Shown here piece by piece: positions 20,943 to 25,248 of a DNA stretch of 64,000 nt. The notes beneath the pieces are model-generated. The model was not told the DNA's origin and made no database searches. It worked only from the letters and a program-made list of their open reading frames with translations. The stretch's first letter is position 1. Each line of letters begins with the position of its first letter. The DNA is from Candidatus Adlerbacteria bacterium (GTDB lineage: Bacteria; Patescibacteriota; Minisyncoccia; Phycocordibacterales; SBAW01), in NCBI GenBank assembly GCA_903851045.1, contig CAINNF010000015.1, positions 96,644 to 160,643 of the forward strand, in the 5' to 3' direction. A program made the position numbers and the translations under genes.

Positions 20943-21013
20943 GTCACATGGAGGGTATCGTTTTTACGCAAGCATTTTTGGAATATGCTTTTATTGCATA
21001 ATGCTTTCACCCC

Positions 21014-21048
21014 TCCCGCGAAACATCCCCCCGCAGCTCGATAGCTCC
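21014..21048. repeat. 35-bp direct repeat, copy A (TCCCGCGAAACATCCCCCCGCAGCTCGATAGCTCC)
   Basis: 34 of 35 positions are identical to copy B at 22606-22640. Together they bracket the purC-purE fusion gene. Confidence 0.8.
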
Positions 21049-21093
21049 CTTCGGGTCGACTTCTACATACTATCAACGTAGACACAAGACGAA

Positions 21094-21124
21094 ACGGCAC
21101 GACCCCAATGGGGTCGTGCCGTTG
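21094..21124. terminator. hairpin terminator (ACGGCACGACCCC-aat-GGGGTCGTGCCGT) 3' of the purC-purE gene
   Basis: 13-bp perfect stem with T-rich flanks. Confidence 0.6.
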
Positions 21125-21149
21125 TTGTTTGGAGAACGATAGACAATAG

Positions 21150-22481
21150 TCAGTGAGCGCCCTCCAGCCGATCTTCCAGCTTCCCTGCCAGGAGGCTGTA
21201 GAAGAACGGATTGCGCGTGGCGAGAATCTGCAGAGCCGCCAAGAGTGCGTTCCCGGGACTGAGCACAGTGCTCACCGGGACGCCGCTCGGCATCCGCAAC
21301 GAAGACCAGACATCCTCAGAGAAACTGCCGACGGTTGCAGGAACCGTGATAACCGGAGCGACCGACGCAGCCGACAACAGAGGCCCGGCAGCGTTGCTCA
21401 TGCCGACGTACGCGATAACCACCGAGCTTGGCACCTCTTGGAGCATCCGCCGAAGGGTCGCGAGCGCCCGCTCCGGTTCCTTGTGGGCGGAGCAAGTTAC
21501 GATCGGCATAACGAAGTTCTGAGGCAACAATGCACCAAGCGCTTCACACGCCCTATGGAACACCTCAACATCGTCCGACTCCGACCCACGCCACAGAATG
21601 ATCCTCTGGCGAGGAAGGTGGAATCGGTCGGTGAGTTCGGCAACCAGCCGATACTTGGCGAGCACGTCATCAAGTGCACCACCATCGCGGTAAGCTTGCT
21701 TGTCGATGTACGCGCCGTTATCGAGAACGCGCCATGAATCATTATCGATGACGTCGGCAAGAAGCAAAGCGCCGCCCGAAGTAAGACCGAACTCCACCTT
21801 AAAGTCGACGAGAGTGCGGCCTTCAAGTTGCCACGCTTTCTCCAACACGAGGAATGCCTGACGAGCAATGCGAGCCATCTTGTCGAAGAGCGCAGCTTCG
21901 TTATCGACAGTAAAGACTTCCGCGTCGCTGAGCACGAGGAACGGCTTCGCGCCATGGATCGGCTTCGCGGGGTCGTACAGGCAGATCCTCGGCTCGTCGG
22001 CGTTTGGATCATAGATCATGAGCGGATCGTCGCACGGCAATGCACATTCGCCCCAACGCTTACCGTTCGTCTTAAGATAGAACTCGACGACAAGTCGCGG
22101 GAAGAGGTGACCCTTGGAGATGTGCGGATGTCGCTTAAGAAAGGACCCGTGCGCCTCGCGCCGGACCACCACTTCGTACGGGAGCATGTCGCAAAGGTGT
22201 GCGACGAACGACGTTGGGTCGCGCTGAAGTATGTACGCGACCGGAAGGCCGCACGCACTCAACAGTCGAAATACGTTGGAGGTCGTTCGAGTCGCGAGCG
22301 CCGCCTTGCCCGACAGGATGTCGTGCTTAGCACCATCACCCGCAGTGATATCGTCTTTTGCGGCGAGGACTCCTAGACCAGGCCGTCCTTTGACCGCAAA
22401 AACTCGCTTGGTCTTACCTTCGGCGAGCAGCTCGCCGTTCGGATAGGCGAAGATGAGATCATCGGCTGTCTGATTATTCAT
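21150..22481 (-). CDS. bifunctional SAICAR synthetase (PurC) / AIR carboxylase-mutase (PurE-class) fusion, PAICS/ADE2-like architecture
   Basis: N-terminal half: GKTKRVF, DDITAGDGAK, VDFKVEFGL (PurC). C-terminal half: RIILWRGSESD, AYVGMSNAAGPLLSAASVAPVITVPATVGSF, MPSGVPVSTVLSPGNALLAALQILA (PurE). ATG at 22479-22481. Confidence 0.8.
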   Translation of the reverse strand: MNNQTADDLIFAYPNGELLAEGKTKRVFAVKGRPGLGVLAAKDDITAGDGAKHDILSGKAALATRTTSNVFRLLSACGLPVAYILQRDPTSFVAHLCDMLPYEVVVRREAHGSFLKRHPHISKGHLFPRLVVEFYLKTNGKRWGECALPCDDPLMIYDPNADEPRICLYDPAKPIHGAKPFLVLSDAEVFTVDNEAALFDKMARIARQAFLVLEKAWQLEGRTLVDFKVEFGLTSGGALLLADVIDNDSWRVLDNGAYIDKQAYRDGGALDDVLAKYRLVAELTDRFHLPRQRIILWRGSESDDVEVFHRACEALGALLPQNFVMPIVTCSAHKEPERALATLRRMLQEVPSSVVIAYVGMSNAAGPLLSAASVAPVITVPATVGSFSEDVWSSLRMPSGVPVSTVLSPGNALLAALQILATRNPFFYSLLAGKLEDRLEGAH

Positions 22482-22605
22482 CACCATTCCCCTTTCGTGG
22501 GATATGTGGTTGATCGAAAGAAACAAGTCCAAAAATACCCTACTCGAAAAACAGAGGCTTCGCAACAACACTAAAGGCGCTCACCAAATAGTTGCACCTT
22601 AACCT

Positions 22606-22640
22606 TCCCGCGAAACATCTCCCCGCAGCTCGATAGCTCC
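22606..22640. repeat. 35-bp direct repeat, copy B (TCCCGCGAAACATCTCCCCGCAGCTCGATAGCTCC)
   Basis: See copy A. Lies in the divergent region upstream of the purC-purE gene. Confidence 0.8.
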
Positions 22641-22736
22641 GTTCTTGGCCTGGCATACATGGTCGTCGCAGGTGTCTTTACATACAATAATAAATATGTT
22701 ACATAAGTACTGGCAACCTGTTCTGGGAGAACAACC

Positions 22737-23357
22737 ATGCGTTTTGTGTTCGGTACGCGTTTTGCGTTGTGGATCGTTGTGTGGGCAGCGATCACCATCA
22801 CCTTGACCACTTGGGTTACCGCTTTGCTTATCGCGTGGGGTTTGGACGATACTCAGTCTGTCCTCGACCCGAGTGCGCACCTGTACGTCCTGCGCCAGTT
22901 TGTCTGGTGTATGGAGCTGTTCGCCTATGGCTCAATGGGGTGGAATGCGCTCGCAGGCGGTTACCTGATGCTCATGGTGCTTGGCATGCTGCTGGTTGGC
23001 GACCTTGGCATTCAGTTCGGGCTCTTCAAGAATGAGCTCGGCGAGATCGACAAGGTGCAAAACCGCGTTCTGCACTACTGCACCGTTCTCTTCCTCATCC
23101 AGGCCTACATCGGCGTCGGGAGCTGGATGATTCTGTACTTCATCAGCGAGCCCAGCGCTCACCTGGCGTCGATGACCCTGATTGAGGGCTCGAGGAGGCT
23201 GTTGTTTACGATTGGTGCACCCGTCCTCGTGATCATGAGCGGTCTGTACATGATGGATTTCCTGGGCAAGCAGTACATCATCGGCACCGCACCCCCGCGC
23301 TGGCTCCCCTCCCCCGAGCTTCGCGCCCGCATGCGCCGCTTCGGCCTGGGGCAGTAA
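22737..23357 (+). CDS. polytopic membrane protein (hypothetical)
   Basis: SD GGGAGAA. 5-6 TM helices. Terminator hairpins at 23383-23420. Confidence 0.55.
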   Translation: MRFVFGTRFALWIVVWAAITITLTTWVTALLIAWGLDDTQSVLDPSAHLYVLRQFVWCMELFAYGSMGWNALAGGYLMLMVLGMLLVGDLGIQFGLFKNELGEIDKVQNRVLHYCTVLFLIQAYIGVGSWMILYFISEPSAHLASMTLIEGSRRLLFTIGAPVLVIMSGLYMMDFLGKQYIIGTAPPRWLPSPELRARMRRFGLGQ

Positions 23358-23469
23358 TCCCAACCCCCGCCTCGTGCAAAGACTCGACACAAAGTCCTTG
23401 CACCAGCGGGGACTTTTTTATATGAAGTTCGTTCAACTAACGCAGTCAGACTACGTTAGTTCCAAGAAG

Positions 23470-25248
23470 CTAGAGCGTTTCGATAATTTTTGAAAGTAGC
23501 TGAGTTATACGCACTTTTGTTGTGTCAGAAAAATTACTCAATTTTATTTTCTCTTCATTGACTCCTATCATAAAATCTCTAGCGACAATAACTTTAGATA
23601 GCTTTGCAGCTTTCATAAACTCAGAATTTGTCGTAGCCTCATGGTTAGCATTATTTGATTTGAGGACAACATGATTAAACTCATCTCGAGAAAAAAGATC
23701 TTCAATTCCTTGGCAACCGTCGATCTTTATAAGTTTTTTCTCCTCACAGACCATGGAATCCTTTAGCTCTTTAAGAACTTTTCGTCCATGAGGTTCATCA
23801 TCAAGCACAATTGAAAAACTAAGCCCCCAACCGAGCATGAGATTTGCCAACAAAGGGAGATTCGCGCATCCGGTAGCTGGCAAAAAATTGACAGTCTCAC
23901 TTTTTGAACAAAGTTTCCAAAAAGCTTTAAAATAAAAAAACGCTGATATCTCTTCCAACAAAACATTATTACTTCTAGAAATCACAGTCTGATGAGATAC
24001 GTCTATCCCCATGTTTGTGTAGAGAGGCATCAAAGTGTCCATAGAGGCGCTTCCGAGGTCTTGAAAAGGAATAATTCTTGTCTCACTTTTTTCATCCTCA
24101 GTATCTGTTCGCTCAATTGCCAAGATACGATAGACCTTATCCATATCCAGCAAATACGGAGAATGGGTCGTGAAAATTATTTGAAGATTTTTCCTTTGCT
24201 TCTCAAACACCCTAAGGATATCCTCCTGCGCTTTGGCGTGTAGATTAGCTCCCGGTTCGTCTATCAAGAAAACCCTGCCTCCCCCTCTCCTCGCAGAAGC
24301 CTCAAGTTTTAAATAAAACGAAATAAACCATTTAACCCCCTTGCTTCGCTGGGCTGGAGACTGGCGCCCATTCTTATCCCTAATCCAAAATATAAGGTAT
24401 GGTTGTCCGGGTTTACCTAACTCTGAACTCTTGTGGTATTTTAACTCCAAGACGATCTCTATTTTGTCTTTCTTCCCAACCGTCTGGTGCCAATATTTTT
24501 GCAATTCAACATTTACCTTTTTACTTTGCACTTCGAGAAAGTCATCAATGAGGCGGACACTCGAAGGATTCAATAGATCCTCTATCTTTACGTCAGCTAT
24601 ATATAGAAAATTCTTTGCACCCTCATAGCCTAGAGCTTTTGTGTTTTTCTTCACTAAATCATCGAGATCAATTGTGGGAGGGAGTAAGCTGTCTTCTTTA
24701 AATATGTCTATACTTGGCAAACTATTAAATAATTCATCCACAAAATCACTTTCCTTTATTAAAACAAGTCTTTCGACTCGCTCAGAGATTTCTTCTAGAC
24801 TTTGGGTGGTGGTGTTATTTCCAACCTGGCTCTTTTCAGCCTCGGCAAAATTCTGCCACACACCTCTTAACTCTTCGTTCTCTAGAACCAACTCACCACC
24901 CTCGTAGTTGCCTGACTCCCATACCCTTTTCAAAGCAATACACTTTCCAATTTTCTCAAAGACTTTTTTGAAATTTTTAGGTAATTCTTTACCTTCAGAT
25001 AAACACTCTTGGAGTTCTTCGAGACTATCGAACTTAAAAATACAGGTAACTTCTGGCATTAAACCAGTGCTCCGAATATCATCTTGGTATACGTCCCCGG
25101 TTTCAAAGGCATGGATACCATCCAATACCGAAGATTTTCCTGACTCGTTTTGTCCAACAATAAGCGAAATCCCATCTGGTGACAAATCCTGAAATCCAGT
25201 ATCAATAATTGATCGAAAGTTTTGAATCCTGAATGCTTGTAATCGCAT
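23470..25248 (-). CDS. OLD-family endonuclease-like protein: N-terminal ABC-type ATPase (AAA_15/21-like) + C-terminal TOPRIM-like domain; AT-rich island
   Basis: N-terminus MRLQAFRIQNFRSI; Walker A GQNESGKSS; Walker B/D-loop RVFLIDEPGANLH; H-loop IIFTTHSP. C-terminal VLLEEISAF and IVLDDEPHG are TOPRIM-like E and DxD motifs. GC is about 40%, against about 56% in the flanks. Confidence 0.8.
   Translation of the reverse strand: MRLQAFRIQNFRSIIDTGFQDLSPDGISLIVGQNESGKSSVLDGIHAFETGDVYQDDIRSTGLMPEVTCIFKFDSLEELQECLSEGKELPKNFKKVFEKIGKCIALKRVWESGNYEGGELVLENEELRGVWQNFAEAEKSQVGNNTTTQSLEEISERVERLVLIKESDFVDELFNSLPSIDIFKEDSLLPPTIDLDDLVKKNTKALGYEGAKNFLYIADVKIEDLLNPSSVRLIDDFLEVQSKKVNVELQKYWHQTVGKKDKIEIVLELKYHKSSELGKPGQPYLIFWIRDKNGRQSPAQRSKGVKWFISFYLKLEASARRGGGRVFLIDEPGANLHAKAQEDILRVFEKQRKNLQIIFTTHSPYLLDMDKVYRILAIERTDTEDEKSETRIIPFQDLGSASMDTLMPLYTNMGIDVSHQTVISRSNNVLLEEISAFFYFKAFWKLCSKSETVNFLPATGCANLPLLANLMLGWGLSFSIVLDDEPHGRKVLKELKDSMVCEEKKLIKIDGCQGIEDLFSRDEFNHVVLKSNNANHEATTNSEFMKAAKLSKVIVARDFMIGVNEEKIKLSNFSDTTKVRITQLLSKIIETL

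What the first reader, a model, noticed from the sequence alone, without database searches (positions are those of the whole stretch)
21014..22640. PAICS-like purC-purE fusion gene bracketed by near-identical 35-bp direct repeats
**Seen in sequence.** One 444-aa ORF fuses a SAICAR synthetase (GKTKRVF, DDITAGDGAK, VDFKVEFGL) to a PurE-class AIR carboxylase/mutase (AYVGMSNAAGP..., MPSGVPVSTV...LAALQILA). No other purine-biosynthesis gene is seen in 64 kb. Exactly flanking the gene plus its promoter and terminator are two 35-bp direct repeats, TCCCGCGAAACATC(C/T)CCCCGCAGCTCGATAGCTCC, at 21014-21048 and 22606-22640, with a single mismatch.

**Established knowledge.** PurC-PurE fusion (SAICARs N-terminal, AIRc C-terminal) is the animal PAICS/fungal ADE2 style of organisation and is uncommon in bacteria.

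**Inference.** The 1.56-kb repeat-bounded segment looks like a cassette acquired or mobilised by site-specific or homologous recombination. It may be an orphan salvage/bypass enzyme rather than part of a full pathway.
Basis: partly seen in the sequence, partly recalled or inferred. Interest (0 to 1): 0.65.

Follow-up and report, generated by a model that had tools for sequence, protein, structure and literature searches.

The report
Repeat-bounded PAICS-like purine gene module
A normal-looking bacterial version of the animal two-in-one purine enzyme PAICS sits as a self-contained 1.6-kb module between two 42-bp repeats that are leftovers of a defence-gene start, and a sister genome has the same site without the module, so it is a repeat-mediated gene insertion or deletion and not a new kind of system.

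Summary
A 443-aa ORF (21150-22481, minus strand) fuses SAICAR synthetase to a class II PurE. It aligns over its full length with insect and human PAICS.

It is bracketed by direct repeats, which are actually 42 nt long (21011-21052 and 22603-22644, 39/42 identical). Similarity stops sharply at both ends of the repeats.

The fusion is not rare. Thousands of about 437-aa homologues exist, and hundreds of GTDB species genomes encode a relative (Xanthobacteraceae, Verrucomicrobia, some Patescibacteria). IMG already annotates them as carboxylase/SAICAR synthase.

Three results are new:
- **Origin of the repeat.** It is a relic of codons about 14-27 of a RhuM/Fic-DOC-type defence-island gene.
- **Empty site.** A sister genome has exactly this site with one hybrid repeat copy and no purCE.
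- **Third copy.** The same sister genome carries another copy on the far side of the neighbouring membrane-protein gene. That copy still reads MKKKGGVVIYQAKNGAIELRGDVLRETI*.

The locus is therefore a variable defence-gene hotspot in which single-gene modules are bounded by this relic. The purCE module was inserted or deleted by recombination across it.

I found no integrase, no attC-like hairpin and no genome-wide repeat family. The direction of the event, and whether recombination was homologous or site-specific, remain open. Interest is modest.

The parts
21150..22481 (-). purCE: PAICS-type bifunctional gene, 443 aa plus stop. N-terminal SAICAR synthetase fused to a C-terminal class II PurE (AIR carboxylase).
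   Evidence: Pfam PF01259 and PF00731. Full-length match to PAICS structures 4ja0 and 2h31. The start ATG is invariant in orthologue leaders.
21612..22427 (-). SAICAR synthetase (PurC) domain, about residues 19-290. It includes a segment (about residues 140-200) that does not align with PAICS.
   Evidence: Pfam stretches from residue 19 on. The alignment to PAICS splits into residues 12-139 and 201-434. The GKTK and KDDITAGDGAK motifs are invariant in family alignment A1.
21204..21596 (-). PurE domain (residues 296-426) with class II signatures: GMSNAAGP and SSLRMPSG.
   Evidence: Pfam AIRC 296-426. The alignment pairs GMSNAAGP with GRSNGLGP of PAICS and GRSNALSG of the T. denticola AIR carboxylase 3rg8, against the GGAAHLPGM-type stretch of the M. 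tuberculosis PurE 3lp6.
21011..21052 (-). Repeat copy A, downstream of purCE. On the minus strand it reads ...KGAIELRGDVSREG*. It is a relic of a rhuM-type gene 5' end.
   Evidence: tblastn with the RhuM proteins of L089 and L090 gives GAIELRGDVSRE, 10/12 and 9/12 identical.
22603..22644 (-). Repeat copy B, upstream of purCE. On the minus strand it reads ...VCQAKNGAIELRGDVSREG*. It is a relic of the same rhuM-type 5' end, and the similarity to RhuM reaches 22658.
   Evidence: tblastn against the RhuM N-termini of L089 and L090: 64% and 60% over 25 aa, E 0.002 and 0.001.
21093..21123 (-). Perfect 15-bp-stem hairpin 27 nt after the purCE stop, followed on the minus strand by TTTCGTCTT. Likely the purCE terminator, inside the module.
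   Evidence: Inverted repeat I6, 100% complementary. The terminator scan lists it on the plus strand. Sequence read.
22537..22565 (-). Putative purCE promoter inside the module: TTGCGA (22560-22565), 17-nt spacer, TAGGGT (22537-22542).
   Evidence: The TAGGGT box and the leader downstream of it align with orthologue loci L094 and L093. Coordinates. It falls below the threshold of the consensus scan, so this is an inference.
22484..22496 (-). Ribosome-binding region GAAAGGGGAATGG. It is part of a leader motif CCCACGAAAGGGGAATGG(T)nATG shared by orthologues with only 65-69% protein identity.
   Evidence: Alignment A3 of four genomes. blastn of L094 against the window leader gives 77% over 60 nt, E 1e-7.
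20948..21010 (.). 63-nt block directly next to copy A. Together with copy A it is conserved (92% over 105 nt) in the sister genome. Left of 20948 the two genomes are unrelated (CxxCxxCC gene here, patatin gene there).
   Evidence: blastn L091 1189-1293 = window 20948-21052.
22645..23461 (+). Neighbouring module conserved at 89% in the sister genome: an intergenic promoter region plus a 206-aa membrane-protein gene (22737-23357) and its hairpin. In the sister genome it directly follows the single repeat copy and is followed by a further repeat copy.
   Evidence: blastn L091 1252-2112 = window 22603-23461. P0147 is 87% identical. Gene tables.
22687..22716 (-). Sigma-70-like promoter (TTGCCA, 18 nt, TATTAT) outside the module, upstream of relic copy B. 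Probably the old promoter of the rhuM-type gene; it could read through into purCE.
   Evidence: Promoter scan, 10/12. The region is conserved in L091.
23470..25248 (-). Context: a low-GC (39%) AAA_15/AAA_21 ATPase of the AbiLi/AriA/Old/GajA/PtuA type. It occupies the place where the sister genome has relic copy C and a DpnII endonuclease gene.
   Evidence: Pfam, PADLOC, composition, L092 tail.

Best explanation
The gene (21150-22481, minus strand) encodes a bacterial PAICS-type enzyme. Its C-terminal class II PurE domain should carboxylate AIR directly with CO2 to give CAIR, with no PurK or ATP step. Its N-terminal PurC domain should ligate aspartate to CAIR, using ATP, to give SAICAR. These are steps 6 and 7 of de novo purine synthesis.

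The gene is a self-contained expression unit. It has a conserved leader with a -10-like box and RBS, and its own hairpin terminator.

The 1,592-bp unit (gene plus one repeat) lies between two 42-nt direct repeats. These repeats are decayed copies of the 5' coding end (about codons 14-27) of a RhuM/Fic-DOC-type defence-island gene.

The locus is a variable hotspot in which single-gene modules (purCE; a 206-aa membrane protein) and defence genes are separated by copies of this relic. The defence genes are an AAA_15 ATPase here, and patatin and DpnII in the sister genome.

The purCE module entered or left the site by one reciprocal crossover within the relic. That means either Campbell-type insertion of a circular module carrying one copy, or the reverse event, deletion between the two direct copies in the sister lineage.

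Shown: gene identity, repeat boundaries, relic identity, the empty site with a hybrid copy, and a third copy at another module junction.

Inferred: enzymatic activity, use of the internal promoter, the crossover mechanism, and that it runs on short homology or a recombinase encoded elsewhere.
For: Gene:
- Pfam finds both domains.
- It is collinear over its full length with PAICS structures (4ja0 E 1.6e-61, 2h31 E 3.3e-58).
- Class II signatures GMSNAAGP and SSLRMPSG align with PAICS and with the T. denticola AIR carboxylase, not with the GGAAHLPGM-type stretch of the M. tuberculosis PurE.
- The family is strongly conserved (mean column identity 74%).
- The leader and RBS are conserved in L094, L093 and L082.

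Repeats:
- 39/42 identical, sharply bounded.

Relic identity:
- The 20-mer core hits only two JGI contigs. Both hits lie at the start of genes that are Pfam Virulence_RhuM (one also carries a Fic domain). The one scanned against PADLOC (the L089 protein) matches PDC-S23 at E 9e-102.
- Sister copy C reads MKKKGGVVIYQAKNGAIELRGDVLRETI*, 20/28 identical to the L090 N-terminus, E 2e-12.

Empty site:
- L091 1189-1293 equals window 20948-21052 (92%).
- L091 1252-2112 equals window 22603-23461 (89%).
- They share one repeat copy (L091 1252-1293), which carries the copy-A variants at repeat positions 3 and 18 and the copy-B variant at position 39.
- The same gene order is seen in a second contig, and L091 occurs in 3 samples.

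Further copy at another junction:
- L091 2121-2162 and L092 816-857.

Hotspot character:
- AAA_15/AbiLi-like ATPase at 39% GC, a patatin effector and DpnII flank the modules.

Not an artefact:
- Identical locus in at least four assemblies.
Against: - Forty-two bp is near the lower limit for RecA-dependent recombination, and no recombinase gene was found in the 64 kb. The enzyme that did the crossover is therefore unidentified.
- Direction (insertion here versus deletion in the relative) cannot be resolved. The hybrid copy fits both.
- purCE has native GC and codon usage, so a recent foreign acquisition is unlikely. An intragenomic move or an old residence is needed.
- The two genomes also differ on the outer sides of the shared modules. 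The 'empty site' is therefore defined relative to the conserved about 920-bp module, not to a demonstrably syntenic chromosome.
- The relic core (93-95% identical among four copies) is better conserved than the adjacent relic codons and than the neighbouring gene (89%). In addition, four of the seven differences between copies A and B over the 48 nt that end at the shared stop codon are silent in the relic frame, counting TGA to TAA as silent; the other three change the two codons (AAG CCC / AAC CAA) at the opposite end of the repeat. A purely neutral relic does not predict this.
- Only one relative is available.
Confidence: 0.72

Rival explanations
1. The 42-54-nt sequence is the recombination site of a dedicated, integron-like or island-type site-specific system. 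Its recombinase would be encoded outside the window, and its chromosomal target would be the 5' end of a rhuM-type gene. Single-gene modules such as purCE and the membrane-protein gene would be its cassettes, and the relic copies would be attL/attR scars of successive integrations.
For: - There are four copies in two genomes. Each sits exactly at a module junction, with unrelated DNA on both sides and sharp boundaries.
- The core is 93-95% conserved, more than the flanking gene at 89%.
- All three A/B-type copies (A, B and the relative's single copy) end at the same position...GCGGGAR, followed by a Gly codon and a stop.
- Modules are one gene long, and the empty site has a hybrid copy.
Against: - No integrase, recombinase or transposase domain was found among about 60 ORFs of the 64 kb (gene tables).
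- The sequence has no dyad symmetry or attC-like fold (z-scores -1.05 to +1.44).
- The 20-mer core is absent from 185,579 GTDB species genomes, from IMG/VR, and from plasmid and phage collections.
- Repeat lengths differ between events (42 nt here, about 54 nt in the relative). That fits homology-defined rather than site-defined boundaries.
- The module genes have opposite orientations.
Confidence: 0.15
2. The repeats are a functional cis element, such as an operator, a small-RNA or small-peptide gene, or an insulator. It would have been duplicated because it regulates purCE and neighbouring genes. The presence or absence of purCE in relatives would then be unrelated to the repeats.
For: - Copy B lies between an outer promoter-like site and the purCE leader.
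- Four of the seven differences between A and B over the 48 nt ending at the stop codon keep the reading ...GAIELRGDVSREG*, including stop to stop (read from the sequence).
Against: - No Rfam match even at E up to 1, and no stable structure.
- Copy A has in-frame stop codons 7-8 codons upstream and no start codon, so no peptide can be made from it.
- The junctions of the purCE indel fall exactly in the repeat. An unrelated regulatory element would not explain that.
- The sequence is homologous to a coding N-terminus.
Confidence: 0.06
3. The arrangement is an assembly artefact: a chimeric join at a short repeat, or a frameshift that merges adjacent purC and purE genes.
For: The data are metagenome-assembled. 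Several assemblies break at the same nearby positions (20533, 23687), which shows strain heterogeneity around the locus.
Against: - Contigs from at least four assemblies, built with k = 141 and other assemblers, are 100% identical across both repeats.
- A 42-nt repeat is shorter than k = 141.
- Thousands of homologues share the same fused architecture and length.
- The protein is collinear with solved PAICS structures.
Confidence: 0.02

Closest known systems
Animal PAICS (human 2H31/7ALE; Bombyx mori 4JA0), bifunctional AIR carboxylase / SAICAR synthetase
   Same: Same domain order (PurC-type N-terminal, class II PurE C-terminal). Collinear over the full length, E 1e-58 to 1e-61. Shared motifs: KD(D/Q)ITAG, GxSNxxGP, WSSLRxPSG.
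   Different: Bacterial. About 60 residues (about 140-200) in the PurC half do not align with PAICS. Scores lie far below the NCBIfam purC and purE equivalog cut-offs. Activity and oligomeric state are untested.
Bacterial PAICS-like family of about 437 aa (annotated in IMG as phosphoribosylaminoimidazole carboxylase / SAICAR synthase)
   Same: 60-69% identical over the whole length, with the same architecture. Shares the leader/RBS motif with the closest members.
   Different: This copy is the most divergent listed (at most 69% to any other). It sits in a defence-gene hotspot between relic repeats. Relatives sit among unrelated genes that differ from genome to genome (secA and an Obg-type GTPase, mscL and others), without the repeat.
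Treponema denticola class II PurE (3RG8), stand-alone bacterial AIR carboxylase
   Same: Class II signatures GRSNA and SSLRMPSG. Implies a PurK-independent route.
   Different: Not fused to PurC. Weaker similarity (E 3e-8) than to PAICS.
Genomic-island integration that leaves duplicated fragments of the target gene as attL/attR. Examples from my own knowledge, not tested here: islands that target the 5' end of dusA, and tRNA-fragment trails in Prochlorococcus tycheposon islands.
   Same: Direct repeats derived from a gene end. Empty site with one copy in a relative. Several relic copies in a row separate cargo modules in a variable, defence-rich region.
   Different: No integrase in 64 kb. The cargo is a single housekeeping-type gene of native composition. 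The target gene body is gone, and the repeats are 7% diverged.
Integron gene cassettes / CALIN arrays
   Same: One-gene modules separated by a conserved short site. A circular-intermediate topology is plausible.
   Different: No attC hairpin. No GTTRRRY/RYYYAAC core was seen when the repeat was read by eye (not formally scanned). No IntI. The site is a relic of coding sequence, and gene orientations are mixed.

Membership tests
PAICS-type bifunctional PurC-PurE enzyme | N-terminal SAICAR synthetase domain and C-terminal PurE domain in one polypeptide, collinear with PAICS | tested here: met
   PF01259 (E 8e-39) plus PF00731 (E 2e-20). Two collinear stretches cover residues 12-139 and 201-434 against 4ja0 and 2h31.
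PAICS-type bifunctional PurC-PurE enzyme | PurE half is class II (direct AIR carboxylase): GxSNxxGP in place of the class I GGAAHLPG stretch, and SSLRxPSG in place of SIVQMPxG | tested here: met
   GMSNAAGP and SSLRMPSG align to GRSNGLGP and SSLRLPSG of human PAICS, and to GRSNALSG and SSLRMPSG of T. denticola 3rg8. The M. tuberculosis PurE 3lp6 differs at these positions. The family consensus is GRSNGAGP. The class meaning of these motifs comes from established literature, recalled from memory.
PAICS-type bifunctional PurC-PurE enzyme | Catalyses AIR + CO2 to CAIR without ATP, then CAIR + Asp + ATP to SAICAR | not testable with these tools
   Needs enzyme assays or complementation.
Canonical bacterial purC / purE equivalogs (NCBIfam TIGR00081, TIGR01162) | Score at or above the curated equivalog cut-off | tested here: not met
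   86.2 bits against a cut-off of 189.9 (purC). 74.6 bits against 149.6 (purE). It is a distinct, PAICS-like lineage.
Site-specifically integrated island or cassette | Direct repeats at both ends, and an empty site with a single copy in a relative | tested here: met
   42-nt direct repeats. L091 has one hybrid copy joining both outer flanks.
Site-specifically integrated island or cassette | Cognate integrase or recombinase in or next to the element | tested here: not met
   No integrase, recombinase or transposase domain in about 60 ORFs of the 64 kb. The rest of the genome was not available.
Integron cassette (attC) | Imperfect palindromic attC site that folds as a single-stranded hairpin | tested here: not met
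   ssDNA folding of both strands of three copies gives z-scores from -1.05 to +1.44. No significant inverted repeat within the site.
Interspersed intergenic repeat (REP/BIME/MITE-like) | Many copies at unrelated intergenic sites, usually palindromic or with terminal inverted repeats | tested here: not met
   Two copies in 64 kb at up to 17 mismatches in 50 nt. The core is absent from GTDB species genomes, IMG/VR, plasmids and phages. No hairpin. The rest of this genome could not be scanned.
RhuM / Fic-DOC-type defence-island gene (Pfam PF13310; PADLOC PDC-S05/S23) | Intact ORF with the conserved N-terminal module followed by the RhuM core (with or without a Fic domain) | tested here: not met
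   Only 13-19 codons remain in the window copies, and 28 codons in the relative's copy C. All are followed by a stop and by unrelated DNA. These are relics, not genes.

The most novel reading that the evidence does not exclude
The relic is not just a scar. It would be the active recombination site of an undescribed cassette-exchange system at a defence hotspot. A recombinase encoded elsewhere would shuffle one-gene modules bounded by a 42-54-nt site derived from the 5' end of a rhuM-type gene, and it would be able to capture core metabolic genes such as a PAICS-like purCE. This would explain three things: why the site is better conserved than its surroundings, why it recurs at three different module junctions in two genomes, and why its substitutions are biased.
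Probability: 0.12. Interest if true: 0.65.

Novelty: new member of a known kind. Interest (0 to 1): 0.33.

Why it matters
The finding documents cleanly how a single core-metabolism gene can be gained or lost. The evidence is an occupied site, an empty site and the origin of the repeat, and the mechanism is recombination across a 42-bp relic of a defence gene. Purine prototrophy could therefore be a strain-variable trait in this poorly sampled freshwater lineage.

It also corrects the impression that PAICS-type fusions are essentially animal. They are common in several bacterial clades, which bears on the origin of animal PAICS and on PurK-independent (CO2-dependent) purine synthesis in bacteria.

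Neither point changes current concepts.

Tried and rejected
- **Genome-wide copies.** The 20-mer core found nothing in GTDB species genomes, so this genome is not in that collection and its other copies could not be counted. IMG/VR, plasmids and phages gave nothing.
- **Conserved neighbours of purCE.** My own ORF clustering on 80 loci was spoiled by long spurious ORFs in high-GC DNA. The called-gene tables show no conserved neighbour.
- **Relatives through the left flank.** The CxxCxxCC protein has no homologue other than itself in 5.8 billion proteins.
- **Other strains.** P0121, P0122 and L001 turned out to be the same sequence, 100% identical.
- **Riboswitch or known RNA in the leader or repeats.** No Rfam match at E up to 1.
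- **attC-like or REP-like structure.** None.
- **Phage carriage of the fusion.** Only distant PurC-only genes in IMG/VR.
- **Relic peptide (33 aa) against 1.84 billion representatives.** Three weak hits, two of them to proteins of 1144 and 1198 aa with many matched stretches; not followed up.
- **Literature on bacterial PurCE fusions or on rhuM as an integration target.** Nothing specific found.
- **Taxonomy of the organism.** No source name was attached to any cluster.
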